From assembly GCA_000092065.1 (NCBI GenBank), contig CP000595.1: a DNA stretch of 64,000 nt. One strand, 5' to 3'. Both the position numbers and the translations under genes were made by a program. The notes under the pieces are model-generated. The model was not told where the DNA came from, ran no database searches, and saw only the letters and a program-made list of their open reading frames with translations. Positions 1 through 29,715 of the stretch are shown piece by piece (position 1 is the stretch's first letter; each line of letters opens with the position of its first letter). Source of the DNA: Ostreococcus lucimarinus (Eukaryota).

Positions 1-1374
1 GGCAAAGTTCATGGCGCTGTCCACGTCCCCGCCCGAGTGCGTGGTCTTTAAAACCCACAAGTAATGTTTGAAAGAATCGATCATTTGCGGCATGTGGAAC
101 GCGGGGCCGTGGATGCCGTCCGAGCGCCAACCCGCCTTCATACCGGCCAAATCTTCTCGCGTCAAGCCGGCGTTATCCCACAAGTGCGCCCAGAAATCGT
201 CCCAGTTACCGGTGTGCAAAAAGTGCAGGTATGCCTCGCAAATCTTCACATCATCGGGCGTGGTGTTAGAGTGAAGCTTTTGATGCCACTGCGCGATGAA
301 CGGATCCTCGATTCCCGGACGATGTCCCTCTTTGATGCCGTGCGTTCGCATGATGTTCAAGATGCCCATGCGAATATCGTCGCCGTTGCCTCCTCCGCGC
401 GGTAAGAATGCGAGCGAGGCGCGCATGAGTCCGCGCGACGTGGCGTCCGGCGCCGTCGTCGCCGCGTGCGCGATGCGTCCCGCCAAGCGCTCTTGCTTGC
501 TCGCCATGTCCTTGCCCTGGTAATTGTTCCCGGCGTACCAGTGCAACTGGCGCAGCGAGCTCAGGCGCAACCACGCGTAGACGAGCGCCGCACCCTCGGG
601 CCCGATCGCCAACGCGGCGTCCAGGGCGTCGTCAACCATGCAAAATCGCGTGAACAAGTTCACGCTCCCACCCTCGTGCTCGGCGGCGCGTCGCGCCAAC
701 GATTCCGCGCCCGCCGCGCCGCCGCCGCCGCCCGCCGCGGATTCTCTCACCCTCATCTCCACGTCCCCGTCCTCCGCGTGCGCCCAAAACTCTCCGCACA
801 CGACGATCCCGACGATCGACCCAACGTTTCTCAACCCCTCGACGTCCCCTTCGCTCGCGTTCGAGCAATCCATCTCCAACGTCAGCGTCCCGCTCGCGTC
901 GAACGCGCTCCTCGACGCGATCCCGTCCCCGAAATCCCTACTCCCCGTCCTCGCCTCCAGCCCGCGCGGCGCCTTCGCCCACGACCCATCGCCATCGACC
1001 GCCCGCGTCGCCCAGTGCAGTTCGACCTCGCCTCTCGCGCACCGCTCCAGGAGCGCGTCGTCCGCCGCCCGCAGCGTCGCCGTCGTCGTCCCGTTCGCGC
1101 GCGTCCGCGTCTCCACTCGCACCGCGTGCCCCCCCGCGAGCGCGTGCGTCGTCTCGCGGACCACGTCCGGGACGTCCGCCTTTTTTTCGCGCGCGCCGGC
1201 GCCTCGTCCGACGCGCGCGCGCGTCCCGGCGTCGATCGCGCCGCGCGCCGTGGATAGCGTTCCTCGCGAAGATCGCGTCGCGCGGCGCGCCGTCGCGCGG
1301 TCGATCGTCGCGCGCGCCGCGTCCGCGCGCGCGAACGTCGCGCGCGTCGCGTCGCGCGCGAGAGAGACGCGCAT
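1..1374 (-). CDS. alpha-glucan water dikinase (GWD)-like protein, N-terminal part; gene continues past the left window edge
   Basis: Minus-strand frame is open from about 1374 to base 1 and is not in the ORF track because it has no stop in the window. Translation contains WHQKLHSNTTPDDVKICEAYLHFL and LVYAWLRLSSLRQLHWYAGNNYQ (conserved GWD central region) and a CBM45-like VELHWATRAVDGDGSWAKAP. The N-terminus MRVSLARDATRATF... is Ala/Arg/Ser/Thr-rich and resembles a transit peptide. The true start is uncertain. Confidence 0.55.
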   Translation of the reverse strand, partial: MRVSLARDATRATFARADAARATIDRATARRATRSSRGTLSTARGAIDAGTRARVGRGAGAREKKADVPDVVRETTHALAGGHAVRVETRTRANGTTTATLRAADDALLERCARGEVELHWATRAVDGDGSWAKAPRGLEARTGSRDFGDGIASRSAFDASGTLTLEMDCSNASEGDVEGLRNVGSIVGIVVCGEFWAHAEDGDVEMRVRESAAGGGGGAAGAESLARRAAEHEGGSVNLFTRFCMVDDALDAALAIGPEGAALVYAWLRLSSLRQLHWYAGNNYQGKDMASKQERLAGRIAHAATTAPDATSRGLMRASLAFLPRGGGNGDDIRMGILNIMRTHGIKEGHRPGIEDPFIAQWHQKLHSNTTPDDVKICEAYLHFLHTGNWDDFWAHLWDNAGLTREDLAGMKAGWRSDGIHGPAFHMPQMIDSFKHYLWVLKTTHSGGDVDSAMNFA

Positions 1375-1516
1375 CGCGCGCGCGCGCGTCGTCGGTCGCG
1401 GTGTGACGATTCGCTTCGACGAATCGAATCGTCAGAGCGCGACGCCGCGCCGCGCGGACGCGTCGACGCGCGGCGCGACGCGACGGCGACGCGCGCGGTC
1501 CTCCGCGGCGTTTCGC

Positions 1517-1726
1517 ATGTGCGGCGCGTGCCGCGCGCGGCGCGCGAGCGCGAGAGAGACGACGACGCGCGCGGAATTCTGCGCGCCGTGTCGCGACGGC
1601 GCGAGAGCGACGACGACGCGCGCGACGCGCGTCGCGGACGGGGCGTCGTTCGACGTCGTCGTGTGCGGCGCGGGCGCGGCGGGGACGTCGTTCGCGCGGA
1701 CGTACCTGGAGACGACGGCGCGGGGT

Positions 1727-1766
<40 letters not shown>

Positions 1767-3241
1767 CGCGCGGCGCGAGGCTGCTGCTGCTCGATCGCGG
1801 CGGATGCGCGAAGACGGTCGAGCGCGTGGAGCGCGTGACGCGGCGGGCGTCGGTGTACGGCGCGCGGGAGAGCGCGCTGGGGGCGCTGGAGGCGCTGGGG
1901 GCGCGGACGGCGACGGCGAGCGTCGCGGCGTGCGACGCCGAGTCGAAGACGTTGACGCTGGACGACGGCGCGCGCGTGCGGTACGGCGCGCTGTGCGTCG
2001 CCACGGGGGCGACGCCGCGATGTCCGCTGCCGGAGGCGAGCGATGGAGCGGTCGACGCGCACGAGGTGCGAGACGTGGAGAGCGCGGACGCGCTGGCGAG
2101 ACGGTTGAGCTCGATGACGGCGACGGCGAGCGCGGATTCGGATTCAAAGACGAAACGGATCGCGATCGCGGGGAACGGAGGGATCGCGCTCGAGCTCGTC
2201 GACGCGCTCTGTGTGCGAGGTTTGCGCGCGCGAGGGTTGGAGGCGTGCGAATTGGTGTGGTTGGTGAAACACGGCGAAGTCGGCGACGCCTTTTTCGACG
2301 TCGACGCCGCGGATTTCTTGCTGCGCGCGCTCGACGCGAGACGGCGAGACGGCGAGGCGAAAGACGACGACGGCGCGGACGTGGACTGGGACTCACCGAC
2401 GCCCGAACGCGGTGCCGGACGATCGACGAAGAAGCGCGCGCGAGGGCGCGAATCAGGCGCCGCCGCCGGTCCGGATTGGCTCGACAGATTTAGAGCGAAG
2501 AGCGCGGCGGACGACGCGCGCGCGCCTCTCAGCCGCATGAAGCTTCGCGTGCTGAAAAATGTGTGCATACGCGAAGCGCGTAAAGACGCAAACACCGGCG
2601 TCAACGTATTGACGCTGAGCGATGGGACGACGATCGAGGTGGACGCCGTCGTCGCCGCCGCGGGCGTCGAGCCGAGATGCGATTGGCTCGACGAAGTCGC
2701 CGCGCCGAGGTCGAAATCAGACGGCGGTATACTCGTCGATGCGTGCATGCGCACCGTAGGACCGTACGGCGACTCAATATTTGCCGTCGGCGACGCGTGC
2801 ACGATGTCGGCGCGCGCGTCGAACCCAGAGACGCCGTGGTTTCAAATGCGACTGTGGAGCCAGGCGGCGCAAACAGGCGCCTTCGCCGCGAAAGTCGCCG
2901 TGGGCGTCTGCGACGCCGACGCCCTCGGATTCAATTTCGAAATCTTTACCCACGTCACCAGGTTTTTCGGTCTCAAAGTCATCTTGCTCGGGCTGTACAA
3001 CGCCCAGAAGCTCGACGACGTCCCGGCGAACGAGGTGACGACGTACCAGCGCGAGTCGCTCGCCGACGCGACGTACGTGCGCGTGCTCCTCGTCCGCGGT
3101 CGCATGATGGGCGCCGTGCTCGTCGGCGACACCGATCTCGAGGAAACTTTCGAAAACCTAATCTTAGACGGCGTCGATCTATCGCGTTTCGGTCCGAGTT
3201 TACTCGATCCCGAGCTCGACTTGGAGGATTATTTCGACTGA
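1517..3241 (+). CDS. PYROXD1-like pyridine nucleotide-disulfide oxidoreductase (FAD/NAD(P)-binding), copy 1
   Basis: Rossmann motif FDVVVCGAGAAG is present. The C-terminal block WFQMRLWSQAAQTGAFAAKV...FEIFTHVTRFFGLKVILLGLYNAQ...RGRMMGAVLVGDTDLEETFENLILDGVDLS...LLDPELDLEDYFD matches the PYROXD1 C-terminal domain almost motif for motif. Start is taken at MCGACRAR. The upstream part of ORF 638..3241 is antisense to the GWD gene and is rejected. Confidence 0.75.
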
Positions 3242-3323
3242 CGCGACGCGCGAGACGAGCGAGAAACGAATGAAATCAAATGACAATCAACCCTAGACAA
3301 CTACCACCGTCCGACGCCCGCGC

Positions 3324-3674
3324 TCAGTGCGGTTTCGGCACGAACCCGTCCACCGCGAAATTCCGCGTCGCGCGCGGTAAAATCACGACGCATCCCTCCA
3401 ACGCTCCGCGCTCCAGCGTCACCTGACACCCCAACCTCGACGTCGCCGTCAACCCGTACGCCAAATCTAACATGTCGTTCTCGTCGTCGCACGCCTCCGG
3501 CAGCGTCTCGAACACTTTTTCGTCCTCGAACACGACGTGGCACGTGGAACACGCGAGCGAGCCCTCGCACGCGCCCTCGAGCTCGACGTCGTGCCGGTGC
3601 GCCGTCTCCAGCAGGTTCTCGCCAATCAATCCGCGCACCGCGCGTCGCTCACCGTCGCGCTCGACGAACGTCAC
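3324..3674 (-). pseudogene. truncated adrenodoxin-type [2Fe-2S] ferredoxin fragment (duplicate lacking N-terminus and ATG)
   Basis: Encodes the same C-terminal 116 aa as the full gene at 10442..11047, including CEGSLACSTCHVVFEDE and LGCQVTL. It starts at a GTG, the in-frame upstream sequence has no ATG, and the duplication boundary (about 3727) cuts off the presequence. Confidence 0.6.
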
Positions 3675-4283
3675 CTCGATCGAGTTCTCGGGCGTGAGTT
3701 TCGTCTTTTTGTCCGCGCCGTGCGCGACCGTGATCCCGGCTCGTCCACGTGGCGCGTACGAATAAGAATGAGAATGAGAATGCGCGGCGATCGAGCGTCT
3801 TCGTTCGCGCGGTCGCGTCCCCGCGCTCGGCCGCTCGTGCGTTCGCGCGCGTTCGCGGTCGAGTCGATCACCGGACGACGCGTTCGTTCGCGCGTCGTCG
3901 AGTGCGGCGACCGAGGGCCGTCGCGCCCGGTGATGCGATGTCCACGTGGGATCGTGGAATATCTGGCTGTGTGCGTAAACAGTGACGGGGGGCTTCTCGG
4001 ATCGACCCCGCGGCCCGTGGGGAGAGGGGCATGGTGTTGGATGGTGTGTACGCGAAACGTGTGTGCATCATACGTATATTGACCCAAAGGTATCTATCAC
4101 GTGTAAAGGTACTAATGTGTGTGTGAAATTCAATGATGGGTCATGACTCGAGAACGGGGGGGGGAGGCACACCCGGGATGCGCGCCGATTCTTATCGACA
4201 GAGGAGGACGAGGAGGACGATTGGCGCGCGCGTCGCGTTCGATGGAAAACCGATGTCGTATGACAAACAGATAAAAACGTTAT

Positions 4284-5918
4284 TTAGTGCGCGTGCCCGT
4301 GCGAGTGGCCGCCGCCGCCGCCGGCTGTGCAGTGCTTGTGGTTGAGGAGCACGAGACTGACGGCGACGACGCCGACGACGAACGTCAAGAGGCTCGCCGC
4401 GCGAAGACGAGACGTAGTGGCGCTCACCGAAACTCGCGGCATACACTCCGCGGCAGCGATTTGTAGATAGATTCCAGCGCCAAAGGCGAGCAAAAGTCCG
4501 TGCCAGAAGTCGTTGTTACTTCCAGATCCAACGCTGATGAGAACGCCGAGGATGACGCTCACGCCGGAGATGAAGTTCATGAACAGCGAGCGAAACGGCG
4601 TGAGATCGCCCTGGAAGGGATCCGTGAGTACCAAATAGTCGGCGAGCTCTTGCGCGATTTCGTGATAGACGGTCGCGGCGGTGATCGACCATCCCATGGT
4701 CTTTCCACAGTTCAGGAAACCGAATCCGATGAAGATGCCATCCACGAGGTTGTGCATGAAATCTCCGAGGATGATGCCGCTTCGAACGCGATACTTGTGC
4801 GAGTGGCACGTTTCGCAATCTTCTTGAACGCCTTTGATCGCGTTCTCCGCGTCGATCGTCTTCGTCTCGGCTAAACGAGAAGGGAACGCGATGGAGATGC
4901 CCAAATCGATGATGTACGCCACGAGAAAGCCAAAGACGGACGCGGACGCCCACCACGCGGTTTGTTGCGACTCATCCGAACCGGCGGGTTTGATCAAATG
5001 CGTGGCTTCGTACAACATCAGATAGAACGCAGCCGAAAGAAGTGCACCGGCGGCAAAGGAGTTAATGATGCAACTCACGAATTCGGGGTACGCTTTCTGC
5101 TTCTTCGCGAAGCTCGGAGAGAGAAAGATGACGCCGGAAAGCGTGACGATGTTGACGATGATCGCCGCCCCGATGGCGTCGGACCACGGTTTTGATTTCT
5201 TTGTAGTCACCGTTTCGGGAAGCGAAGCCACTGGCTCCACGTCATCCCCGTTGACATCCTTGAGATAGTGCGTATCGCGCTCGAACTCGGTGGGAACGTG
5301 CTCGGCGAAAATCGAGACGGCGGCGACGCCAGTCGTATCAATCTTAAACGACGACGTGTGCCAAGCGTTATCAAATTGAAGTTTGACGCATCCACTCCCG
5401 GGCGTCAAAACGCTGTTTCGCGTTTTAACCGTCGTGCACGCCGTCTCGAGCGCGGCCTCGCCCGCGTCCTCGCGAGCCTCGAGCTCTTCGTGTCCGGCGG
5501 CGGTTTCGGCGTAGATGACCATCTTCATGGTCGCGTCCGCGTACTGGTCCTTCACCTTTTCCGCCTGCCACACGTACGCATCGTCCGGAGTCTCAAAGAT
5601 CCCCGCCCATTCGAACGAGTGCGCGTGCGCGCCGGACGCGAGCGCGCCGCGCGCCGCGAGCGCGCTCGAGACGACCGCCGCGCCTCCGAGCGCGGCGCCC
5701 ATCCTCCATCCGCCTCCTCGTCGTCGTCGTCGTCGTCCCGCGCCCGCGGTCGCGTCTCGCGTCGTCATCGCGTCGCGCATCGTCTCGTCTATCGTCTCGT
5801 GCATCGTCTCGTTCGTCGTCGTCGTCGTCGTCGCGCGTCGTCGAGTGCGGCGACCGCGCGCGCCGGCATCGCGACGAGACGACTCGAACCGGCGCGAGGG
5901 GGGTACTTCTCGAGTCAT
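4284..5918 (-). CDS. ZIP-family metal (zinc) transporter, LIV-1-like subtype
   Basis: TM4 motif HNLVDGIFIGFGF and TM5 motif YHEIAQELADYLVL (HExxxExxD) are present. There is a His-rich C-terminal tail GGGGGHSHGHAH and a long extracellular N-domain. A probable signal peptide MGAALGGAAVVSSALAARGALASG suggests the true start is at about 5702. Confidence 0.8.
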   Translation of the reverse strand: MTREVPPSRRFESSRRDAGARGRRTRRRATTTTTTNETMHETIDETMRDAMTTRDATAGAGRRRRRRGGGWRMGAALGGAAVVSSALAARGALASGAHAHSFEWAGIFETPDDAYVWQAEKVKDQYADATMKMVIYAETAAGHEELEAREDAGEAALETACTTVKTRNSVLTPGSGCVKLQFDNAWHTSSFKIDTTGVAAVSIFAEHVPTEFERDTHYLKDVNGDDVEPVASLPETVTTKKSKPWSDAIGAAIIVNIVTLSGVIFLSPSFAKKQKAYPEFVSCIINSFAAGALLSAAFYLMLYEATHLIKPAGSDESQQTAWWASASVFGFLVAYIIDLGISIAFPSRLAETKTIDAENAIKGVQEDCETCHSHKYRVRSGIILGDFMHNLVDGIFIGFGFLNCGKTMGWSITAATVYHEIAQELADYLVLTDPFQGDLTPFRSLFMNFISGVSVILGVLISVGSGSNNDFWHGLLLAFGAGIYLQIAAAECMPRVSVSATTSRLRAASLLTFVVGVVAVSLVLLNHKHCTAGGGGGHSHGHAH

Positions 5919-5943
5919 GACTCGATATTCATGAGAACACCAT

Positions 5944-5971
5944 GTGTCGACACCTCGCGAGGTGTCGACAC
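5944..5971. promoter_or_regulatory. 28-bp composite palindrome GTGTCGACAC-CTCGCGAG-GTGTCGACAC containing two ZDRE-like sites (RTGTCGACAY)
   Basis: Read directly from the sequence. It lies in the divergent promoter between the ZIP gene (minus) and the bZIP-like gene (plus). Confidence 0.5.
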
Positions 5972-6017
5972 GCGTGTCTTCGTACGTCCGCGCGCGACGA
6001 CGACGACGACGACGAGG

Positions 6018-6680
6018 ATGACGACCGTCGGCGGCGCCGCGCGACGTGACGATCGAGGCTCGGCGTTGCCTCCGCGATGCGTCGAGATCGCGCGCGAGTC
6101 GCCGTCGGCGTCGCCGTCTCGAAGGAAAACGCCCGCGAACGATCGCGCCGTCAATCGCGCCGCCGTGCGACGGTACCGCGAGCGCAAACGAATGGACGAG
6201 AAGGAGAGAATCGAGGAGTGCGAACGGTTGCGCGGGGAGAACGAGACGTTGAGACTGGCGTTGGAGACGTCACGAGCGGAGTTGAAACATTCGAGGTGGT
6301 TGTTGCGCGTCGTCGCGTGGAAGTACGACTTAGACTTGGCGGATATTCCGACGGAGAAACCGTCGACGTCGACGATGCCGCAAGGGAGGGTGAGAGGAAG
6401 CGATGCAAACGCGGTGTTTCCCGCGGGTGGGGTCCCCGCGCGGAACGACATCGCGCGACCGTTCGCCGCGCGCGGCGTCGCCGAGACGCGGCCTCGGAAA
6501 ATTCCTCGCGCAGCCGACGACGACGCGAAACCGGCGGGCGCGCCTGATGAACTCGAGCTCAAAGATTTCTTGGAGGAATACTTCACGCACGGCGACGCGT
6601 GCCCGTGCTACGAGATCACGGACGCGGACGCGCGCGCGGCGCCGACGCGCGGCGCCGACGCGCGGCACGCGTGGTTCTAG
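6018..6680 (+). CDS. small bZIP-like protein with C-terminal His/Asp/Cys-Pro-Cys motif (paralog A)
   Basis: Basic region NRAAVRRYRERKR (N-x7-R) is followed by a Leu heptad zipper, a conserved ELKHSRWLLRVVA block, and the C-terminal FLEEYFTHGDACPCYE. Start is taken at MTTVGG; the longer ORF 5268..6680 overlaps the ZIP gene and the palindrome. Confidence 0.6.
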   Translation: MTTVGGAARRDDRGSALPPRCVEIARESPSASPSRRKTPANDRAVNRAAVRRYRERKRMDEKERIEECERLRGENETLRLALETSRAELKHSRWLLRVVAWKYDLDLADIPTEKPSTSTMPQGRVRGSDANAVFPAGGVPARNDIARPFAARGVAETRPRKIPRAADDDAKPAGAPDELELKDFLEEYFTHGDACPCYEITDADARAAPTRGADARHAWF

Positions 6681-6869
6681 GTATGACGACACATTTACGT
6701 CACACGGTGAAACGTTTTACGCTTCTAATATTATATTATAAAGTTAGTCAACCTATATAGTTACACGCACCACATGATGTCACACGTGATGTGCACACGC
6801 GTATGTATTCGTACTGTGAGTACAATAAGCCTAACATTGTGTAAAATCCCGTGCCCACGATGATCGCGC

Positions 6870-6879
6870 GTGTCGACAC
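6870..6879. promoter_or_regulatory. ZDRE-like palindrome GTGTCGACAC upstream of the COG0523 gene
   Basis: Exact 10-mer about 75 bp upstream of the MADEQDQ ATG. A CACGTG G-box at about 6783 lies in the AT-rich region just upstream. Confidence 0.45.
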
Positions 6880-6952
6880 GAACAGACGGTTGGCCGAAAA
6901 GGCGAAAGGGTCGGCGGCTGTCGTCATCTCTCGACGAACGTTGGCGCTCGAC

Positions 6953-8167
6953 ATGGCGGACGAGCAAGACCAGACCTCGCGCGTGCCGGTGACCATTCTC
7001 ACCGGATTTCTCGGTTCCGGGAAGACGACGCTCCTCAATGAAATCTTGGAATCCGAAACGCACGGATTGCGCTTCGCGGTGATTGAAAATGAATTCGGAG
7101 AGGTGGGCGTCGACGAGAGGATTCTGTCGGAGAAGGCGGACGAAGAGATCATCGAGGTCATGAACGGTTGCATCTGCTGCACGGTGCGCGGTGATCTCGT
7201 GGTGGCGCTGAAAAAGCTCTACTCGAAGATCGCGCAGTTCGACGCCGTCATCATCGAGACGACGGGTTTGGCGGATCCGGCGCCGGTGGCGCAGACGTTC
7301 TTCGTCGACGATGACATTCGAGAAAAGTTTGTGCTCGACGGAATCATCACGGTCACGGACGCGAAGCACATCCTCACGCGGCTCGATGATGAAAAACCCG
7401 AGGGTGTGGAGAATGAAGCCGCCGAACAGGTCGCTTTTGCCGATCGGATACTCCTCAACAAGACCGACTTGGTGTCCGAAGACGAACTCGAAACCATCAC
7501 GGGCCGGATCAAGCAAATTAATCCGAGCGCCGATATCTTCCGATGCCAGTATTCCAAGGTTGATCCGAAAAATTTGATCGGAATCAATTCCTTCTCGCTC
7601 GAGAAGACCTTAAAAATGGATCCCGAATTCCTCAACACGGAGGGCGAGCATGAACACGACCCAACCGTGTCTTCGACGAGCACAAAATTCTCTGGGCACC
7701 TCAACATCAATAAATTAGAACGCTGGATAGGCGAAATAATTCAAACAATGGGTGCGGACTTGTTTCGGTACAAGGGTGTTCTTTCCGTTGCGGGCATGGA
7801 TCAAAAGTTTGTTTTCCAGGGCGTCGGCATGCTTTTCTCCGGCGGCTTCGTCGACGCCAAGTGGGGAGCCGACGAGGAGCGCGAATGCCGCTTCGTCTTC
7901 ATCGGTAAAAATCTGGACAAAGACGCCCTCATCAACGGTTTCATGGATTGCAAGTGTTCCTCGAAGCTTCGCTTCAAGGTGGGCGACGCGGTTCTCGCGC
8001 AGGTGGGCGCCGCCGACAACGACGGCTACTGCCGCGGCACCGTCCGTAAGACGTGGGACTCGGGCAACCCGTACCAGATCGAACTTGAAGACGGTAAAAA
8101 GACAAAAGTGTGGGGACCCGTCGACGAAGACGAGTTCGTCAAAGCTTCGCTCAGCGCCACCGCGTAA
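6953..8167 (+). CDS. COG0523 / CobW-family GTPase (ZNG1/ZCP-like zinc metallochaperone) with extra C-terminal domain
   Basis: Walker A motif GFLGSGKTT and the metal-binding motif GCICC are present, with a CobW C-terminal domain. The extra C-terminal module is KLRFKVGDAVLAQVG...YQIELEDGKKTKVWGPVDEDEF. Start is moved to MADEQDQ because the ZDRE-like site lies inside the annotated ORF start region. Confidence 0.85.
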   Translation: MADEQDQTSRVPVTILTGFLGSGKTTLLNEILESETHGLRFAVIENEFGEVGVDERILSEKADEEIIEVMNGCICCTVRGDLVVALKKLYSKIAQFDAVIIETTGLADPAPVAQTFFVDDDIREKFVLDGIITVTDAKHILTRLDDEKPEGVENEAAEQVAFADRILLNKTDLVSEDELETITGRIKQINPSADIFRCQYSKVDPKNLIGINSFSLEKTLKMDPEFLNTEGEHEHDPTVSSTSTKFSGHLNINKLERWIGEIIQTMGADLFRYKGVLSVAGMDQKFVFQGVGMLFSGGFVDAKWGADEERECRFVFIGKNLDKDALINGFMDCKCSSKLRFKVGDAVLAQVGAADNDGYCRGTVRKTWDSGNPYQIELEDGKKTKVWGPVDEDEFVKASLSATA

Positions 8168-8315
8168 ATGTCGTTTTGTATGAAATCAAATCAAAATTTT
8201 GACCAGTCATGAACCTTCGTGTACACACTCCTCCTTTAGCGCGAACACACACGCATAGTATAGATACAAAAAGACAAGGTAAAACCCATCCAACGCACTC
8301 GCACCGGCTCGCCGG

Positions 8316-8492
8316 CTCGCCTCGTCCGACGCGCGCGCGCGTCCCGGCGTCGATCGCGCCGCGCGCCGTGGATAGCGTTCCTCGCGAAGATCGCGTCGCG
8401 CGGCGCGCCGTCGCGCGGTCGATCGTCGCGCGCGCCGCGTCCGCGCGCGCGAACGTCGCGCGCGTCGCGTCGCGCGCGAGAGAGACGCGCAT
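8316..8492 (-). pseudogene. orphan 5' fragment of the GWD-like gene (first about 60 codons) carried in duplication copy 2
   Basis: ORF 8151..8492 begins MRVSLARDATRATF..., identical to the GWD N-terminus at 1198..1374, then reads into unrelated sequence. Confidence 0.4.
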
Positions 8493-8634
8493 CGCGCGCG
8501 CGCGCGTCGTCGGTCGCGGTGTGACGATTCGCTTCGACGAATCGAATCGTCAGAGCGCGACGCCGCGCCGCGCGGACGCGTCGACGCGCGGCGCGACGCG
8601 ACGGCGACGCGCGCGGTCCTCCGCGGCGTTTCGC

Positions 8635-8844
8635 ATGTGCGGCGCGTGCCGCGCGCGGCGCGCGAGCGCGAGAGAGACGACGACGCGCGCGGAATTCTGC
8701 GCGCCGTGTCGCGACGGCGCGAGAGCGACGACGACGCGCGCGACGCGCGTCGCGGACGGGGCGTCGTTCGACGTCGTCGTGTGCGGCGCGGGCGCGGCGG
8801 GGACGTCGTTCGCGCGGACGTACCTGGAGACGACGGCGCGGGGT

Positions 8845-8884
<40 letters not shown>

Positions 8885-10359
8885 CGCGCGGCGCGAGGCT
8901 GCTGCTGCTCGATCGCGGCGGATGCGCGAAGACGGTCGAGCGCGTGGAGCGCGTGACGCGGCGGGCGTCGGTGTACGGCGCGCGGGAGGACGCGCTGGGG
9001 GCGCTGGAGGCGCTGGGGGCGCGGACGGCGACGGCGAGCGTCGCGGCGTGCGACGCCGAGTCGAAGACGTTGACGCTGGACGACGGCGCGCGCGTGCGGT
9101 ACGGCGCGCTGTGCGTCGCCACGGGGGCGACGCCGCGATGTCCACTGCCGGAGGCGAGCGATGGAGCGGTCGACGCGCACGAGGTGCGAGACGTGGAGAG
9201 CGCGGACGCGCTGGCGAGACGGTTGAGCTCGATGACGGCGACGGCGAGCGCGGATTCGGATTCAAAGACGAAACGGATCGCGATCGCGGGGAACGGAGGG
9301 ATCGCGCTCGAGCTCGTCGACGCGCTATGTGTGCGAGGTTTGCGCGCGCGAGGGTTGGAGGCGTGTGAATTGGTGTGGTTGGTGAAACACGGCGAAGTCG
9401 GCGACGCCTTTTTCGACGTCGACGCCGCGGATTTCTTGCTGCGCGCGCTCGACGCGAGACGGCGAGACGGCGAGGCGAAAGACGACGACGGCGCGGACGT
9501 GGACTGGGACTCACCGACGCCCGAACGCGGTGCCGGACGATCGACGAAGAAGCGCGCGCGAGGGCGCGAATCAGGCGCCGCCGCCGGTCCGGATTGGCTC
9601 GACAGATTTAGAGCGAAGAGCGCGGCGGACGACGCGCGCGCGCCTCTCAGCCGCATGAAGCTTCGCGTGCTGAAAAATGTGTGCATACGCGAAGCGCGTA
9701 AAGACGCAAACACCGGCGTCAACGTATTGACGCTGAGCGATGGGACGACGATCGAGGTGGACGCCGTCGTCGCCGCCGCGGGCGTCGAGCCGAGATGCGA
9801 TTGGCTCGACGAAGTCGCCGCGCCGAGGTCGAAATCAGACGGCGGTATACTCGTCGATGCGTGCATGCGCACCGTAGGACCGTACGGCGACTCAATATTT
9901 GCCGTCGGCGACGCGTGCACGATGTCGGCGCGCGCGTCGAACCCAGAGACGCCGTGGTTTCAAATGCGACTGTGGAGCCAGGCGGCGCAAACAGGCGCCT
10001 TCGCCGCGAAAGTCGCCGCGGGCGTCTGCGACGCCGACGCCCTCGGATTCAATTTCGAAATCTTTACCCACGTCACCAGGTTTTTCGGTCTCAAAGTCAT
10101 CTTGCTCGGGCTGTACAACGCCCAGAAGCTCGACGACGTCCCGGCGAACGAGGTGACGACGTACCAGCGCGAGTCGCTCGCCGACGCGACGTACGTGCGC
10201 GTGCTCCTCGTCCGCGGTCGCATGATGGGCGCCGTGCTCGTCGGCGACACCGATCTCGAGGAAACTTTCGAAAACCTAATCTTAGACGGCGTCGATCTAT
10301 CGCGTTTCGGTCCGAGTTTACTCGATCCCGAGCTCGACTTGGAGGATTATTTCGACTGA
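8635..10359 (+). CDS. PYROXD1-like oxidoreductase, copy 2
   Basis: Identical to copy 1 except for two residues. Its upstream flank is the 3' region of the COG0523 gene. Confidence 0.75.
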
Positions 10360-10441
10360 CGCGACGCGCGAGACGAGCGAGAAACGAATGAAATCAAATG
10401 ACAATCAACCCTAGACAACTACCACCGTCCGACGCCCGCGC

Positions 10442-11047
10442 TCAGTGCGGTTTCGGCACGAACCCGTCCACCGCGAAATTCCGCGTCGCGCGCGGTAAAA
10501 TCACGACGCATCCCTCCAACGCTCCGCGCTCCAGCGTCACCTGACACCCCAACCTCGACGTCGCCGTCAACCCGTACGCCAAATCTAACATGTCGTTCTC
10601 GTCGTCGCACGCCTCCGGCAGCGTCTCGAACACTTTTTCGTCCTCGAACACGACGTGGCACGTGGAACACGCGAGCGAGCCCTCGCACGCGCCCTCGAGC
10701 TCGACGTCGTGCCGGTGCGCCGTCTCCAGCAGGTTCTCGCCAATCAATCCGCGCACCGCGCGTCGCTCACCGTCGCGCTCGACGAACGTCACCTCGATCG
10801 AGTTCTCGGGCGTGAGTTTCGTCTTTTTGTCCGCGCCGTGCGCGATCCGCGGCGACGCGGAGACGCCGCGAGCGACGTAAAGCTGGGCAGGTTTCTGGGA
10901 CGCGCGCGGCGCGGCGTCCCGGGGACGCGACGCCGACGCGCGCGGGAGGGCGGTCGAGGCGAAACACGCGGTCGACGACGACGACGACGACGACGACGCG
11001 CATCGCGCGCTCGCGGCGGCGCACGCGCGCGCGAGACGGCGAAACAT
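10442..11047 (-). CDS. adrenodoxin-type [2Fe-2S] ferredoxin with N-terminal organellar presequence
   Basis: Cys ligand motifs CEGSLACSTCHV...LGCQV are present. The Ala/Ser/Arg-rich N-terminus MFRRLARACAAASARC looks like an organellar presequence. It is convergent with the oxidoreductase, with 83 bp between their stops. Confidence 0.85.
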   Translation of the reverse strand: MFRRLARACAAASARCASSSSSSSSTACFASTALPRASASRPRDAAPRASQKPAQLYVARGVSASPRIAHGADKKTKLTPENSIEVTFVERDGERRAVRGLIGENLLETAHRHDVELEGACEGSLACSTCHVVFEDEKVFETLPEACDDENDMLDLAYGLTATSRLGCQVTLERGALEGCVVILPRATRNFAVDGFVPKPH

Positions 11048-11334
11048 CGGCGCGGTGGGACCTCGCGAGGCGCGAAGTGAAGCCGAGGCGAAGACAAAGT
11101 TGAAAGTCGAATTGCAACGCGGCGGCGCCTCGCGGCGGCGCGAGGGCCCGCGCGCGACGTGTAAGTGTTAATGTTGGTTAATAGTCGGTGGATCATTCGT
11201 CGACGTCCAGGGCGCGCGCGCGGTTCGACGCCGCTCGGCCGAGGTTTTGTTCAAACAGACGCGAAGAGCGGCGCGAGCGCGACTTCGCCGCTCGCCCCCC
11301 CTGCGGACGAGGGCGTCGGGCGCGCGTAAAAGAA

Positions 11335-12252
11335 TCATTCGTTCGGGTAAAGTTCCCTCTCAAACTCCTCCAAAGTTGCTAAATCGCTCGGTTTGAGCTT
11401 AATGCCCTTGTGTCCGCGCGGGTATCGGCGCTCCAGCGCCCGCATCGCGTCCTCCAATTTCCTCCGCTCGCTATACATCAGATACGCCACGGCGACGCTC
11501 GGCGCGCGCGAGTGCCCGCTCATGCAGTACACCAGCACCCTATTCGGCACCCCAGCCTCATCCGCGCGCTTCGCCTTGACGTGTAATTGCTCTAACTTCC
11601 TCACCGTCTCCCCTAAATCCAATTTCGTACCGTCATTCGCGTTTCGCGGCGCCGTGAAGACGTCTATTTGCCTAGAGCTACAGCACGGCGTGCACTGCGG
11701 CACGCTCTGTTCGTTCGCGCGCGTCGCGCCGTTCGTCAGTCACCGCGCTTCGCGCCCGCCGATCGCGTCCACCCATCCCACATCGTCCCCAAACCGTCGT
11801 CTCGCGCCTTCGATCTCGTCCCCTCCATTCGCGCTCGCCTCCTCCTCGTCTCTCCGCGCGCGTCCCGCTCGCGCGCGGGCCCCCCAAGTCCCGCGCCCTT
11901 CCCCGCGCTCCCGTCCCGTCGCCTCTCTCTTCCCGCGCTCGCGTCGTTCGCCCGCCGCGCTCGCCCGCTCGAAACGCACGTTCATCACCGTTCGTATCCC
12001 GCACGCCAGCAGCACGTCCTCCTTGCTCGTGTGTTCGAACGCGCCGAGGCACAAAAACTTGTCGATGACTTCGATGATTGGTTCGTCGTGCCCCAATCGC
12101 GGTCTCGGGAGGTCGTCGAGGTCGTCGTCGACGCGTCGGTGGTGGCCGCAGACGCCGCACGTCGTGCCCGGCGCGTGGTCGTGGCCGCACGCGCGGCACC
12201 AGGCGGCGCGCGGCGGCGGGGCGTCGTCGTCGCTGTCGACGACGTGCGGCAT
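11335..12252 (-). CDS. dual-specificity phosphatase, two exons: join(12252..11980, 11706..11335)
   Basis: Exon 1 encodes IIEVIDKFLCLGAFEHTSKEDVLLACGIRTVMN and is followed by a GTGCGT donor. The intron has a CTGAC branch and an AG acceptor. Exon 2 carries the catalytic CX5R motif VLVYCMSGHSR. The N-terminus has CRACGHDH...CGVCGHH (CxxC...CxxC). Confidence 0.6.
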
Positions 12253-12305
12253 CGTGTGCGCGCGTGGGGGGGTCGGGGGCGATGCTTTGCGTGTGATTGT
12301 CGCGC

Positions 12306-12510
12306 ATTCGGCGTGTCTAATACGGGGTTGAGGTGCGTATTGGGGGGGGCGTTCGCGTTGATTAGGTTAGGCGATTTTTGTGTCCGTGTTTTTATGGAGG
12401 TGATTGATTCTTTGGGTGCGCGCGTCCCGGATTCGGCGTGTACAATACGGGGTTTAGGTGCGTATTGCGGGGGACCGTGATCGGGCGATTTTTGTGTCCG
12501 TGTTTATATG
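12306..12510. repeat. tandem duplication of an about 125-bp element (2 copies) in the bidirectional promoter between the phosphatase and PITH genes
   Basis: attcggcgtgt(c/a)(t/c)aatacggggtt(g/t)aggtgcgtattg...ggcgatttttgtgtccgtgttt(t/a)tatg occurs twice. Confidence 0.6.
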
Positions 12511-12597
12511 TAGTCTCACACTGACCTCGGCGGTCGATCGCGCGCCGTCGTCGGTTCGAAACGCGCCGCAACGCCACGCGCGTCGCCATATCGCGCG

Positions 12598-13095
12598 ATG
12601 CTCGACTTGATCGACCACGTCGATGAGCGCTCGGTGGAGTGCCTGAACGCGCTGACGGACGAGAGCTGGCGCAACGCGCTGTGGCCCGGACCGCGGGATC
12701 GGGCGTCGTCGACGCTCGTGAGCGACGACGACGAGGAGCTCATCCTGCGCGTGGAGTTCACGTCCAACGTGCGACCGCGCGCGGTGAAAATCGCGGGCGC
12801 GAGCGCGACGCACGCGCGCGAGGACGCGAGCGCGCCGCGGGTGGTGAAGATATTCGTGAACGCGCCGAGTCTGAGCTTTGAGAATGCGGCCAAGCGGCGC
12901 GCGGCGCAAGTCGTCGAGCTCGACGGCGACGACGAGGTCGAGCTCGACGTGACGGCGTTTGAGAACGTGCGCGTGATGACGTTTTACGTGGAGAGCAACG
13001 TGGGCGGGACGGCGCGGACGGAGATCGGGAGGATCGATATCAAGGGCGAGCTCTCGGGCGAGCTGCGAGACGTGTCGGAGCTCAAGCCGTGCTGA
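12598..13095 (+). CDS. PITH-domain protein
   Basis: Blocks similar to PITHD1 are present: VECLNALTDE, DDDEELILRVEFTSNV and VMTFYVESNVGG...IGRIDIKGE. Confidence 0.65.
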   Translation: MLDLIDHVDERSVECLNALTDESWRNALWPGPRDRASSTLVSDDDEELILRVEFTSNVRPRAVKIAGASATHAREDASAPRVVKIFVNAPSLSFENAAKRRAAQVVELDGDDEVELDVTAFENVRVMTFYVESNVGGTARTEIGRIDIKGELSGELRDVSELKPC

Positions 13096-18653: not shown

Positions 18654-20486
18654 CTAACGCAAAAGGGTGTAGATGACGCTGTCGCACACCTCTTGACGCG
18701 CTTTCGGGGACGAAATAGGTTCACCGTTGAAATCGGTGAGTAAAAATCTGTGCACTTCATCTTGGATGAAGTTCTCGACCGTGCGCGGGTCGATCAAAAT
18801 ATCCGCCTTGAAAACCATGACGTTGAGCGCTTGCAGCGCCTCGGTGACGTCGAGCAACACGCGAGGTCGGGTGTGGCCGGAGATATCCAGCGGCGCGACG
18901 ACTCGAAGCTCGCTCGTCATGCTCTCGCCTTTGTGACACAGCATCTCGACCTTGAGCGGACGATCGACGTGTTCCTTGTACTTGGCGCAGAGGTATTCCA
19001 TTTGCTCTTCGTTTTCGATGTTTCGCGTGAACAGGGCGACTTCGCAAATGGAGTCGTCGACGATTTCAATCTTGGCGTAGCTCACGGAGACTTTCAAATC
19101 CTTCGACACGCGCAAGCAATCGTACAACAAGCCTTGCCTGTCTCGAGTGCGGATTTGAAACACCGTGTGCGCGGGACTCATGAGGTTATCCACCTCCACG
19201 GTTGTTTCGTAATCGAACACCGGCGGTTTGGCTTCGGTGACGATCATCCCGGACGACTCGCGCAAGGTTTTCGTGCGACCTTGTCGAGTGACGAACGACG
19301 GCGCGGGGTGAACCAATATATTGACCCGATTCAACGCCTCGGGCGTTCGCGCGACGACGGGTTTGACGCGTCGGGAAATATCGCCGACGCGCGACGGATT
19401 CGGCAGCTCGTGTAAATCATCCGTCACGTAGAATAGATCCACCGCCTTGCCGCACGGCGCCGTCGTGACGTGCGCGCGATGCACGGTGAGCTGAAGCTCC
19501 CACAACGCGAGCGTGACGTCGTGCAACAGCCCCACGCGATCGTGCGCCTCGACTTGTAAAATATACAGACTCTGATTCGCGTGCATCTGCTCCAACATCT
19601 CAAACGACTCGACGGATGGAATCGTGCTAATCGTGCTCTTGTGCGGACACAGCAACTCTAACCGCTGCCTCAGCAGCTCCCAATCCACGACGCACGTCCG
19701 AGGCGCTATGGACTCCTCGAGCTCGGCCAACGCCGCGTTCCCGCCGTGCGCGCTCCCCTCGAACCGTCGCAATTTCGGCGAACTCATCGACGCCGGCATC
19801 GGCGACCCCGTCGCCGCCGCGCGCTCCCGACCCAGCCCCCGGTCCACGCTCGCCCCCCTATCCCCACTCCCACTCACCCCACCGTCTTTCGCGCGCCCAT
19901 CTCGCCCGCGCGCCCCTAACCAAGCCTTCCTCGCGACGTCGCCGACGCGTCTCGCGATTTCTCCCGCTCGCCTCGCGACTCGCCTCGCCACTCCTCCGAC
20001 CCCCGTTTCCTCGCTCGCCGCGCCCGCGCCCGCGCCCGCGCCCTCGCGCGCCGCGTTCTCATCCATCAGCGATCCGTGGCTCACGCCTCGATCGAGCGCG
20101 CCCGCGCGCACCGTGAGCAACACCAGCGCCCACACGCCGTCCGTCGTAAAGTCGCCGCGCGTCACCACGAGCCCGAATTCAAACACCACCCTGCAGATGT
20201 CCGCCCCGAGCCCCGTCTTGTCCGGGCACGTCACTCGAAACTCCGCGCACGGCACCGCGTCCGCGCCGTCGTCCAGCGCGGCGTACGCGACGCACCGCTC
20301 GTCGTCCGCCGCGTCGTCGGCGATCGTCGCCGCGCGCGCGCGCGCCGACGCGTCGCGCGCGCGCGGCGCGGACGGCGCGCGCGACATGCCGGCGACGCGA
20401 CGAACCGCGGGCGCGACGCTCGACCGACGCGTCGGCGCGCGCGCGACGCCCCTCGAGCGCGCGCGGCGCGTCGATGAGTGACGCAT
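18654..20486 (-). CDS. ACT-domain repeat protein (ACR-like)
   Basis: Several ACT-like units are present: FRVTCPDKTGLGADICRVVFEFGLVV, TVFQIRTRDRQGLLYDCLRVSKDL and LDISGHTRPRVLLDVTEALQAL. The ORF-track start (20939) would overlap the next gene, so the start is probably near 20387-20486. Confidence 0.55.
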   Translation of the reverse strand: MRHSSTRRARSRGVARAPTRRSSVAPAVRRVAGMSRAPSAPRARDASARARAATIADDAADDERCVAYAALDDGADAVPCAEFRVTCPDKTGLGADICRVVFEFGLVVTRGDFTTDGVWALVLLTVRAGALDRGVSHGSLMDENAAREGAGAGAGAASEETGVGGVARRVARRAGEIARRVGDVARKAWLGARGRDGRAKDGGVSGSGDRGASVDRGLGRERAAATGSPMPASMSSPKLRRFEGSAHGGNAALAELEESIAPRTCVVDWELLRQRLELLCPHKSTISTIPSVESFEMLEQMHANQSLYILQVEAHDRVGLLHDVTLALWELQLTVHRAHVTTAPCGKAVDLFYVTDDLHELPNPSRVGDISRRVKPVVARTPEALNRVNILVHPAPSFVTRQGRTKTLRESSGMIVTEAKPPVFDYETTVEVDNLMSPAHTVFQIRTRDRQGLLYDCLRVSKDLKVSVSYAKIEIVDDSICEVALFTRNIENEEQMEYLCAKYKEHVDRPLKVEMLCHKGESMTSELRVVAPLDISGHTRPRVLLDVTEALQALNVMVFKADILIDPRTVENFIQDEVHRFLLTDFNGEPISSPKARQEVCDSVIYTLLR

Positions 20487-29166: not shown

Positions 29167-29397
29167 CTTGTCTCGCGCCGTCGCGAATCGCGCGCGCGTC
29201 GAGTCCCGGTCTCGACGCCCGCGCCCGGTTCGCCCCGGTTCGAGCGCGCGCGAACGAGCCGAAGAGGCGTCGCGAAGTGCGGCGATGCGCGCGCGTCGTG
29301 CACGTGTCGACGATTCGCGTCGTGCACGTGTCGAGGATCGTCGTACGCGACGCCCCGCGAAGCCCATCACGGATCGCGTCGCGACGCGCGTCGTAAA

Positions 29398-29497
29398 CAT
29401 GTCGACACGCATGTCGACATATTTACCCACGCGCGTGTACGCATTGAACCCCGTGATGCATCTATATACGAAAAACGTCTCGACGCACATGTCGACA
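29398..29497. promoter_or_regulatory. three ZDRE-like palindromes (ATGTCGACAC at 29398, ATGTCGACAT at 29410 and 29488) in the promoter shared by the ZIP and LHC genes
   Basis: Exact 10-mers read from the sequence. They lie about 230-330 bp upstream of both flanking start codons. Confidence 0.5.
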
Positions 29498-29565
29498 TAT
29501 TTACCCCACGCGCGTGTACGCATTGAACCCCGTGATGCATCTATATACGAAACAGATAAATGCAC
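29408..29565. repeat. about 78-bp tandem repeat (2 copies), relatively AT-rich, carrying the ZDRE-like motifs
   Basis: catgtcgacatatttaccc(c)acgcgcgtgtacgcattgaaccccgtgatgcatctatatacgaaa occurs twice. Confidence 0.6.
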
Positions 29566-29715
29566 GAAATACACGGTGGTAAACAGACCCCGAATGCGAT
29601 GCGCACGGACGTTCGAGCGCGCAAAAAGCGCGATCGAGCGAGCGATCCGATCCGCGCGCGATCGCTCGCTCGATCGCGCGCGTCGCCACACGCCGACGAC
29701 GCGCGCGCACTCGCG

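What the first reader, a model, noticed from the sequence alone, without database searches (positions are those of the whole stretch)
1198..10845. Recent 2.5-kb segmental duplication flanking the zinc module as direct repeats
Positions 1198-3727 and 8316-10845 are about 99.7% identical (about 7 substitutions), at an offset of 7118 bp. Each copy carries an intact PYROXD1-like gene and the 3' two-thirds of the convergent ferredoxin gene. The 4.6 kb between the copies is exactly the ZIP, bZIP-like and COG0523 module. Long direct repeats flanking a metal-homeostasis cassette could mediate copy-number change of the cassette by unequal crossing-over or excision, or they could mark a relatively recent insertion of the cassette. 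The near-identity implies the event was recent or that gene conversion is ongoing.
Basis: seen in the sequence. Interest (0 to 1): 0.7.

Follow-up and report, generated by a model that had tools for sequence, protein, structure and literature searches.

The report
Zinc gene cassette inserted with duplication
In the marine picoalga Ostreococcus lucimarinus, a 4.6-kb three-gene zinc-uptake cassette was recently inserted at a new chromosomal site, copying 2.5 kb of that site on either side; the structure is real and found in wild populations, but it is a known type of rearrangement.

Summary
Positions 1200-3727 (R1) and 8318-10845 (R2) are ungapped direct repeats of 2528 bp with 6 mismatches, at an offset of 7118 bp. 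They flank a 4590-bp segment (M) that carries ZIP, bZIP and COG0523 genes. The window matches Ostreococcus lucimarinus CCE9901.

Four related lineages have the same neighbourhood (GWD-like, PYROXD1-like, ferredoxin, DSPc) with one R and no M. The window structure L-R1-M-R2-F is therefore derived.

The donor site was found in close relatives. There M lies between a 1032-aa protein gene and RPS26e/DnaJ/tRNase Z. Homology to the window stops exactly at the edges of M, with 1 bp and 7 bp of junction microhomology.

This is an insertion with a 2.5-kb target duplication. It formed by template switching or by end-joining capture. It is not a transposon and not an assembly artefact: both new junctions recur in more than 15 independent metagenome assemblies.

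The event is within-species in age: R1 and R2 differ by 0.24%, against 11% to the sister lineage. A derived 235-bp junction deletion allele also circulates. Evidence for copy-number change or an empty-site allele is only suggestive.

Side finding: plant-type zinc-deficiency elements (RTGTCGACAY) mark the cassette promoters across Ostreococcus species.

The parts
1..1374 (-). 5' part of the GWD-like (glucan water dikinase / PPDK_N) gene. The start codon is at 1374. Codons 1-58 (1200-1374) lie inside R1.
   Evidence: The translation is open from 1374 to the window edge. Gene calls with Pfam GWD1_pHisD/PPDK_N come from homologous contigs.
1200..3727 (.). R1, the left copy of the 2528-bp direct repeat. 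Its left edge is the ancestral L/R continuity. Its right edge (3727/3728) is a new junction.
1517..3241 (+). PYROXD1-like FAD/NAD(P) oxidoreductase, copy 1 (574 aa, intact).
   Evidence: Pfam Pyr_redox_2 at 1.5e-25. Homologues named PYROXD1 at 30-40% identity. Copy differences.
3324..3727 (-). Truncated ferredoxin copy, codons 68-201. It keeps the whole Fer2 domain but lacks the presequence and the start codon.
3728..8317 (.). M, the 4590-bp inserted segment copied or moved from donor locus D. Its edges are ambiguous by 1 bp (3727) and 7 bp (8318-8324) because of junction microhomology.
   Evidence: Homology of donor-context contigs L028, L029 and L033 to the window stops at these points.
3728..4283 (-). 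Donor intergenic DNA: the ZIP 3' region plus the promoter and 5'UTR of the donor-side 1032-aa gene. That gene's start codon (ATG in donors) is ACG at 3729-3731 and lies in frame with the ferredoxin fragment.
4284..5918 (-). ZIP metal transporter (544-aa ORF; 472 aa from the ATG at 5702).
   Evidence: Pfam Zip at 3.2e-21. tblastx shows 75% amino-acid identity to the O. tauri orthologue.
5944..5971 (.). 28-nt perfect palindrome holding two GTGTCGACAC motifs (ZDRE consensus RTGTCGACAY), in the divergent ZIP/bZIP promoter.
6018..6680 (+). bZIP transcription factor. Its basic region is NRAAVRRYRERKR and it has a conserved C-terminal FTHGDACPC motif.
   Evidence: Pfam bZIP_2. Alignment with Mamiellales relatives.
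6860..8167 (+). COG0523 (CobW-type G3E GTPase, 435 aa). A third ZDRE-like motif lies at 6870-6879.
   Evidence: Pfam cobW at 2.4e-61 and CobW_C. 87% identity to O. tauri CobW-like. Motif.
8318..10845 (.). R2, the right copy of the repeat. Its left edge (8317/8318) is a new junction. Its right edge is the ancestral R/F continuity.
8151..8492 (-). 113-aa chimeric ORF. It joins the duplicated first 58 codons of the GWD-like gene to read-through antisense to the COG0523 3' end.
8289..8523 (.). 235 bp spanning the M/R2 junction. This stretch is deleted in a second natural allele (allele B).
   Evidence: Contigs L013 and L053-L056 join 8288 directly to 8524.
8635..10359 (+). PYROXD1-like oxidoreductase, copy 2 (574 aa, intact).
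10442..11047 (-). Intact mitochondrial-type 2Fe-2S ferredoxin (201 aa). It spans the R2/F boundary at 10845/10846.

Best explanation
The two repeats are the scar of a single insertion event. The ancestral locus was L-R-F: GWD-like gene, PYROXD1-like gene, ferredoxin, DSPc.

In one lineage of Ostreococcus lucimarinus, a 4.59-kb block was placed into this locus. The block carries the ZIP/bZIP/COG0523 zinc cassette and its flanking intergenic DNA. It came from another locus (D), which lies between a 1032-aa protein gene and RPS26e/DnaJ/tRNase Z.

The new strand ran through R to codon 68 of ferredoxin (3727) and jumped to D at the start codon of the 1032-aa gene, using 1 bp of microhomology. It copied M, then jumped back to the target 2.5 kb upstream, at codon 58 of the GWD-like gene. 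That second jump used a 7-bp microhomology, CGCCTCG, set in about 24 bp of imperfect GC-rich similarity. R was therefore copied a second time.

This is the pattern expected from replication template switching (MMBIR/FoSTeS type).

The repeats have no designed function. The event left one extra intact PYROXD1-like gene, a start-less ferredoxin fragment and a GWD 5' fragment. It also left a 7118-bp unit that is now a substrate for unequal recombination.

Shown: the derived state, the donor, the breakpoints, the microhomologies and recurrence in wild populations. Inferred: a single step and a replicative mechanism.
For: Single-copy L-R-F without M is found in four outgroup lineages at 80%, 65%, 61% and 56% PYROXD1 identity.

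Contigs L028 (99.5% identical to M), L029, L030 and L033 carry M in context D. Their homology to the window ends at 3727/3728 and about 8324.

The junction sequences show the 7-bp and 1-bp microhomologies.

M has no terminal repeats and no transposase.

Ferredoxin is intact only across R2/F, and the GWD-like gene only across L/R1. The inner junctions are therefore the new ones.

Eight substitutions over 3951 bp (0.20%) are fixed between all R-locus copies of M and donor-type M. This matches the R1-R2 divergence of 0.24% and fits one simultaneous event.

Both new junctions were recovered in more than 15 independent metagenome assemblies from at least 6 projects.

The window's PITH protein is exactly XP_001421636.1 of O. 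lucimarinus CCE9901.
Against: A replicative copy should leave the donor copy in place. Yet 16 R-locus contigs carry the donor-type base at the 8 fixed sites only once (L056 at 4361). Assemblers also run straight through M. Genomes with M at the R locus therefore probably lack a donor copy. That favours cut-and-paste, or requires a later deletion.

The donor locus of the window's own genome could not be inspected.

One base at the left junction differs from the donor: the donor's CCATG is CCGTG in the window.

No long-read or read-depth data were available to fix the copy number.
Confidence: 0.5

Rival explanations
1. The outcome and the donor are the same, but the mechanism is non-replicative. 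M was excised from locus D by two breaks and captured by end joining. It joined a left chromatid end broken at 3727 to a sister-chromatid end broken at 1200. This is a cut-and-paste relocation with unequal sister-chromatid joining.
For: R-locus contigs almost never show donor-type bases at the 8 fixed sites (one exception, L056 at 4361), and they assemble straight through M. This implies no second copy of M in those genomes. Microhomologies of 1 bp and 7 bp also fit alternative end joining. The one-base mismatch at the left junction could be a repair error.
Against: This route needs four coordinated breaks. Template switching needs one collapsed fork and two switches. No empty donor site was seen, because the look-ups were exhausted.
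Confidence: 0.35
2. The structure arose in two steps. R first duplicated in tandem (L-R-R-F), and the cassette later inserted exactly at the R|R joint.
For: The final sequence alone does not exclude this.
Against: It needs a second, independent event to hit the 1-bp joint. No L-R-R-F allele appeared among more than 30 contigs. M and R show similar divergence.
Confidence: 0.05
3. R-M-R is ancestral, and relatives lost M and one R by recombination between the repeats.
For: Recombination between direct repeats would give exactly L-R-F. L-R-F contigs do exist at 99.7-99.9% identity to the window.
Against: Four successively deeper outgroups all lack M. Relatives at 95-99.5% identity hold M at locus D, with continuous flanks. 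R1 and R2 differ by 0.24%, against 11% between sister lineages. The truncated gene fragments show that the inner junctions are secondary.
Confidence: 0.03
4. The duplication is an assembly artefact. The real genome is L-R-F, plus either a mis-joined contig or a 7.1-kb R-M circle.
For: Short-read graphs cannot tell L-R-M-R-F apart from L-R-F plus a circle. Within every metagenome scaffold, R1 and R2 are identical collapsed copies.
Against: The window carries six phased differences between the copies. From general knowledge, not tested here, the CCE9901 genome was finished from Sanger clones. The R1/M and M/R2 junctions recur in many assemblies made with different assemblers. A derived junction-deletion allele also exists.
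Confidence: 0.03
5. M is a mobile element, or a transposon-captured gene block, and the repeats are its target-site duplication.
For: The cassette sits in at least four different contexts across Ostreococcus lineages.
Against: M has no terminal inverted or direct repeats and no transposase or integrase gene. Its edges fall inside a neighbour's start codon and in ordinary intergenic DNA that is continuous with the donor flanks. A 2.5-kb target duplication is far outside the range made by transposases.
Confidence: 0.02

Closest known systems
Non-recurrent complex structural variants formed by replication template switching (FoSTeS/MMBIR), described in human, mouse, Drosophila and yeast copy-number variants (e.g. 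PMC3447954, PMC4056370, PMC6258378)
   Same: The duplication is direct. A segment templated from elsewhere lies at the duplication joint. The breakpoints have 1-7 bp of microhomology and no long homology. The breakpoints fall in ordinary unique sequence.
   Different: It was found as a segregating variant in a haploid marine picoalga and reconstructed from wild metagenomes. The inserted block is a complete three-gene functional module. The donor copy seems to be absent from the carrier genomes.
Breakage-replication/fusion model of segmental gains (Zhang et al. 2026, PMC12807874)
   Same: It also explains duplications and insertions from broken ends that are joined with little homology.
   Different: Its hallmark, adjacent parallel breakpoints from one replicated end, could not be assessed from a single fixed product. 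Here the two target breakpoints are 2.5 kb apart and overlap.
Low-copy repeats as substrates of non-allelic homologous recombination (segmental duplications flanking dosage-sensitive genes)
   Same: There are two direct repeats longer than 2 kb and more than 99% identical around a gene block. The predicted outcomes are deletion and tandem amplification of the 7118-bp unit.
   Different: Recombination products are not demonstrated here. There are only ambiguous short-read topologies (L053, L047-L052).
Plant bZIP19/23 (F-bZIP)-ZDRE zinc-deficiency regulon (Castro 2017, PMC5476651; review PMC9643250)
   Same: The same 10-bp palindrome, RTGTCGACAY, is enriched in the promoters of ZIP transporter genes. 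A bZIP gene lies next to them.
   Different: The literature says F-bZIPs are absent from green algae, naming O. lucimarinus. phmmer finds no plant relatives of this bZIP. The conserved Cys/His motif here is C-terminal (HGDACPC), not the N-terminal plant sensor motif. The regulator, its sites, a transporter and a COG0523 gene are physically clustered.

Membership tests
Segmental duplication / direct low-copy repeat pair | Two copies of at least 1 kb, at least 90% identical, in the same orientation on one chromosome | tested here: met
   The copies are 2528 bp, 99.76% identical and ungapped, at an offset of 7118 bp.
Template-switch / microhomology-mediated insertion with target duplication | The ancestral state has a single copy of the duplicated segment and no insert | tested here: met
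   Four outgroup lineages have L-R-F only.
Template-switch / microhomology-mediated insertion with target duplication | The inserted segment is templated from an identifiable donor locus, with homology ending at the junctions | tested here: met
   L028, L029, L030 and L033 carry M with other flanks. Their homology stops at 3727/3728 and about 8324.
Template-switch / microhomology-mediated insertion with target duplication | Short microhomology at the junctions rather than long homology | tested here: met
   There are 7 bp (CGCCTCG) at M/R2 and 1 bp (A) at R1/M.
Template-switch / microhomology-mediated insertion with target duplication | The donor copy is retained (copy, not move) | tested here: inconclusive
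   Indirect population evidence suggests the donor copy is absent from carrier genomes. The donor locus of the window's genome was not available.
Template-switch / microhomology-mediated insertion with target duplication | Dependence on replication-fork collapse | not testable with these tools
   This needs experimental genetics.
Transposable element with target-site duplication | Defined terminal repeats, a transposase or integrase gene, and a short target-site duplication of fixed length | tested here: not met
   There are no terminal repeats. M holds only ZIP, bZIP and COG0523. The duplication is 2.5 kb.
PYROXD1 (the duplicated gene) | Class I pyridine nucleotide-disulphide oxidoreductase fold with a C-terminal dimerisation-like domain, and orthology to proteins named PYROXD1 | tested here: met
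   Pfam gives Pyr_redox_2 at 1.5e-25 and a weak Rubredoxin_C hit. Hits named PYROXD1 in algae, Dictyostelium and animals are 29-40% identical over more than 80% of the length. Orthology by phylogeny was not tested.
COG0523 / ZIP zinc-homeostasis genes | cobW plus CobW_C domains, and a Zip domain | tested here: met
   cobW at 2.4e-61, CobW_C at 9.5e-23 and Zip at 3.2e-21. Zinc responsiveness is inferred from Chlamydomonas COG0523 data (PMC2770081) and was not tested.
F-bZIP / ZDRE zinc-deficiency regulon | ZDRE (RTGTCGACAY) in the promoters of target ZIP genes | tested here: met
   The window has 6 matches against 0.5 expected. All lie upstream of ZIP, bZIP, COG0523 or a second ZIP gene. The motif is conserved in O. 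tauri and other relatives and absent from 82 kb of control loci.
F-bZIP / ZDRE zinc-deficiency regulon | The regulator is a sequence homologue of plant F-group bZIPs, with the N-terminal Cys/His-rich zinc-sensor motif | tested here: not met
   phmmer against 1.84 billion representatives found only 11 hits; those aligned are Mamiellales-type relatives of this bZIP, and no plant-type bZIP was seen. The conserved Cys/His motif is C-terminal. The resemblance of the basic region to the plant F-group is from memory only.
F-bZIP / ZDRE zinc-deficiency regulon | Zinc-dependent DNA binding and zinc-responsive expression | not testable with these tools
   This needs EMSA or DAP-seq, and RNA-seq under zinc limitation.

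The most novel reading that the evidence does not exclude
The 7.1-kb R-M unit is more than a scar. It carries a self-contained zinc-deficiency regulon: ZDRE sites, a zinc-sensing bZIP, a ZIP transporter and a COG0523 chaperone. On this reading, the regulon has relocated repeatedly within Ostreococcus. Its copy number or presence now varies among wild O. lucimarinus strains through recombination between the flanking repeats. This would mean that the plant bZIP-ZDRE zinc circuit predates land plants, and that its dosage is under selection in the ocean.
Probability: 0.2. Interest if true: 0.75.

Novelty: new member of a known kind. Interest (0 to 1): 0.45.

Why it matters
This is a base-pair-resolved example of how a compact, haploid marine alga moves a whole functional gene module between loci. 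The donor, the target, both junctions and a derived allele are all visible in natural populations.

The event created an extra PYROXD1-like gene and two gene fragments. It also created a recombination-prone 7.1-kb unit around the cell's zinc-uptake module. That unit gives a concrete marker for tracking structural variation of a trace-metal trait in ocean metagenomes.

The side observation may matter more. Plant-type ZDRE palindromes decorate the cassette across Ostreococcus species. This challenges the published view that the bZIP-ZDRE zinc response arose with land plants.

Tried and rejected
L010 and L019 looked like a natural deletion of R2. They in fact hold a 100-N scaffold gap in its place.

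I tried to use R1/R2 differences in metagenome contigs to test for gene conversion. In every short-read scaffold the two copies are identical collapsed consensus, so this is uninformative.

I treated six L-R-F contigs as an empty-site allele. In sample ERZ17174981, however, a separate contig with the M/R2 junction has 0.8 times the coverage of the L-R-F contig. MEGAHIT contigs also cross the repeat without any distinguishing SNP. Loop skipping therefore cannot be excluded. Flanking SNPs do not separate the allele classes.

The L053 topology M-R-M-R-F may be loop unrolling by the assembler.

The clustering of the 5 difference events in the central 1 kb of R is not significant by a range test (P = 0.09).

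A search for the donor locus in its empty state failed. The DnaJ homologue look-ups returned only more distant lineages.

P0109 was not the exact window protein and gave only short contigs.

phmmer with the bZIP reached no plant proteins.

The window has no tRNA genes. M has no terminal repeats.
Full report
**1. Observation**

An offset scan and a self-BLAST of the window place the repeat at 1200-3727 (R1) and 8318-10845 (R2). It is 2528 bp and ungapped, with six mismatches at R1 positions 1871, 1872, 2026, 2209, 2248 and 2901. That is 99.76% identity at an offset of 7118 bp. No other long repeat exists in the first 16 kb.

All six differences fall inside the 574-aa PYROXD1-like ORF: two amino-acid changes and three synonymous changes.

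The R1 ferredoxin piece is codons 68-201 of 201, with no in-frame ATG upstream. R also includes the first 58 codons of the divergently transcribed GWD-like gene. In R2 this produces a 113-aa chimeric ORF.

**2. Organism**

The window's PITH protein is exactly XP_001421636.1 of Ostreococcus lucimarinus CCE9901. The cassette's COG0523 protein is 87% identical to its O. tauri orthologue. That CCE9901 was finished from Sanger clones is my own background knowledge, not a tool result.

**3. Polarity of the event**

Contigs encoding PYROXD1 homologues at 80%, 65%, 61% and 56% identity were examined (L002, L020, L021/22, L023). All show the same gene order:
- giant protein
- AMP-binding/Ank protein
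- GWD-like (-)
- PYROXD1 (+)
- Fer2 (-)
- DSPc (-)
- PITH
- AP-mu

Each has one R and no cassette. BLAST shows that L, R and F are contiguous in L002 at about 89% nucleotide identity.

Ferredoxin is intact only across R2/F, and the GWD-like gene only across L/R1. The window structure L-R1-M-R2-F is therefore derived, and the two inner junctions are the new ones.

**4. The donor locus**

The order ZIP(-)/bZIP(+)/COG0523(+) is conserved in O. tauri chromosome 6, between a raffinose synthase gene and a methyltransferase/MDH pair. In another lineage it lies next to NO synthase. None of those flanking genes occurs in the 64-kb window.

A metagenome scan with the ZIP protein found M in a third context (D):
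- L028, 99.5% identical to the window over 4338-8341
- L029, 94.7% identical
- L030 and L033

In these contigs the right flank is RPS26e/DnaJ/tRNase Z and the left flank is a 1032-aa protein gene.

Homology to the window stops at 3727/3728 and just inside R2. The sequences at the M/R2 side are:
- donor: ...GCCGGCT|CGCCTCGAGCGACGC
- target: ...CGCGCCGG|CGCCTCGTCCGACGC
- product: ...GCCGGCT|CGCCTCGTCCGACGC

This is a 7-bp microhomology set in about 24 bp of imperfect similarity. At the R1/M side a single A is shared.

The left breakpoint lies 4 nt into the coding sequence of the 1032-aa gene. The captured promoter and start codon are in frame with ferredoxin codons 68-201. However, the ATG is ACG in the window and in all 12 contigs that carry this junction.

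M has no terminal repeats and no transposase.

**5. Reality of the structure in nature**

The following assemblies carry one or both new junctions at 99.4-99.95% identity to the window:
- ten ENA scaffolds from several projects
- L001, L024, L026 and L027
- L053-L056

The truncated-ferredoxin ORF is indexed in 306 sample blocks.

Two apparent deletions of R2 (L010, L019) are 100-N scaffold gaps.

In every short-read scaffold R1 and R2 are identical, because the assembler walked one collapsed node twice. The window's variable sites are mosaic among contigs.

A second allele (B) joins 8288 directly to 8524. It removes 29 bp of donor sequence and the first 206 bp of R2. It occurs in L013 and L053-L056, so it is derived from the window's allele and is widespread.

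**6. Age**

- R1 and R2 differ by 0.24%. R differs from the sister lineage by about 11%, a ratio of about 0.02.
- Eight sites over 3951 bp (0.20%) are fixed between all R-locus copies of M and the donor-type copies L028 and L029. This fits one simultaneous origin.
- The R1/R2 variable sites are also polymorphic in apparently single-copy contigs. They need not all be mutations that arose after the duplication.
- The insertion also occurs on a strongly divergent right-flank haplotype (L011, L012). This points to recombination since the event, or to chimeric assembly.

**7. Copy versus move**

At the eight fixed sites, 16 R-locus contigs show the donor base only once (L056 at 4361). Assemblers also traverse M without breaking. 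A second, donor-site copy is therefore probably absent from carrier genomes.

This favours cut-and-paste, or a later loss of the donor copy. I could not inspect the donor site of the window's own genome, because the look-ups were exhausted.

**8. Consequences of the repeats**

Six contigs at 99.7-99.9% identity show L-R-F. One Tara scaffold (L053) shows M-R-M-R-F. These are the products expected from unequal recombination, or from an ancestral empty allele.

The evidence is weak for two reasons:
- In sample ERZ17174981 the L-R-F contig (coverage 12.0) coexists with a contig carrying the M/R2 junction (coverage 9.7).
- MEGAHIT contigs cross the repeat without any distinguishing SNP.

Loop skipping or loop unrolling by the assembler therefore cannot be excluded.

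**9. Mechanism**

The favoured mechanism (0.5) is one collapsed replication fork followed by two microhomology-guided template switches.

The main rival (0.35) is end-joining capture of an excised fragment between unequal sister-chromatid breaks.

The remaining possibilities are each 0.05 or less:
- a two-step origin
- an ancestral R-M-R structure
- an assembly artefact
- a transposon

**10. Side finding**

The plant ZDRE consensus RTGTCGACAY occurs six times in the window, against 0.5 expected:
- twice in a 28-nt palindrome in the ZIP/bZIP promoter
- once upstream of COG0523
- three times upstream of a second ZIP gene near 29.4 kb

The motif is conserved at the same places in O. tauri and other relatives. 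It is absent from 82 kb of control loci.

Published work states that F-bZIPs are absent from green algae, and names O. lucimarinus (PMC5476651, PMC9643250). phmmer finds no plant relatives of the cassette bZIP. The Mamiellales family of this bZIP conserves a basic region and a C-terminal HGDACPC motif.

**11. Verdict**

The rearrangement belongs to a known mechanistic class but is unusually well documented. Active copy-number change is not shown.

Noticed in passing
window 5944-5971, 6870-6879, 29399-29498; L003 9082-9115; L004 164, 888, 1041, 1059: The plant zinc-deficiency response element RTGTCGACAY occurs 6 times in the window against 0.5 expected. All copies lie in the promoters of ZIP, bZIP, COG0523 and a second ZIP gene. 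The motif is conserved at the cassette in O. tauri and other relatives and absent from 82 kb of control loci. The literature says the F-bZIP/ZDRE system is absent from green algae.
   Followed up: partly
window 6018-6680 (+): The cassette bZIP belongs to a small Mamiellales family. It has a conserved basic region, DNRAAVRRYRERKR, and a conserved C-terminal motif, DFLEEYFTHGDACPC, which may bind metal. phmmer against 1.84 billion proteins found only 11 relatives and no plant-type bZIP among those inspected.
   Followed up: partly
window 27676-31032 (-), 29395-29552: This is a second ZIP-domain gene (Zip domain at residues 784-1109 of an over-long ORF). Its upstream region holds a 79-bp tandem duplication, and each copy carries ZDRE-like motifs.
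   Followed up: partly
window 3728-3731 with 3324-3727 (-): The insertion fused the captured promoter and start codon of the donor-side 1032-aa gene in frame to ferredoxin codons 68-201. The product would be a ferredoxin without its presequence. However, the ATG is ACG in the window and in all 12 wild contigs.
   Followed up: yes
window 8151-8492 (-): This 113-aa chimeric ORF is made of the duplicated first 58 codons of the GWD-like gene, reading on antisense into the COG0523 3' end.
   Followed up: partly
window 8289-8523; L013, L053-L056: A natural allele has a 235-bp deletion across the M/R2 junction. It is present in several Tara and other assemblies.
   Followed up: yes
L053 (TARA_SAMEA2620959-S115 scaffold_171): The scaffold reads M-R'-M-R'-F. 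The 6.9-kb unit appears twice in tandem. This is either amplification or loop unrolling by the assembler.
   Followed up: partly
L011, L012 versus window 11000-12700: Two insertion-bearing contigs carry a strongly divergent haplotype in the right flank (DSPc to PITH intergenic region), with dozens of differences and indels. This suggests recombination, introgression or chimeric assembly.
   Followed up: no
L039 2700-3215; L004 2352-2405; window 8214-8317: In a relative about 84% identical, the RPS26e/DnaJ flank keeps about 95 bp homologous to window 8225-8317, but a different gene replaces COG0523. In L004, homology to the cassette ends at window 8214. The cassette therefore seems to have moved more than once in the genus.
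   Followed up: partly
window 1724-1770 and 8842-8888: A (GACGGC)n microsatellite encodes a Gly-Asp repeat near the N-terminus of both PYROXD1-like copies. One metagenome scaffold (L001) has a gap there.
   Followed up: no
window 48599-49396: This is a tandem array with an 81-bp period (243-bp higher order) and about 10 copies, at 81% matches.
   Followed up: no
window 20320-20449, 41265-41522, 46343-46544, 60504-60790: Several GC-rich, partly palindromic elements of about 100-250 bp are 74-84% similar to each other and to 1275-1497 inside R. They may be low-complexity CG-rich sequence or a dispersed repeat.
   Followed up: no
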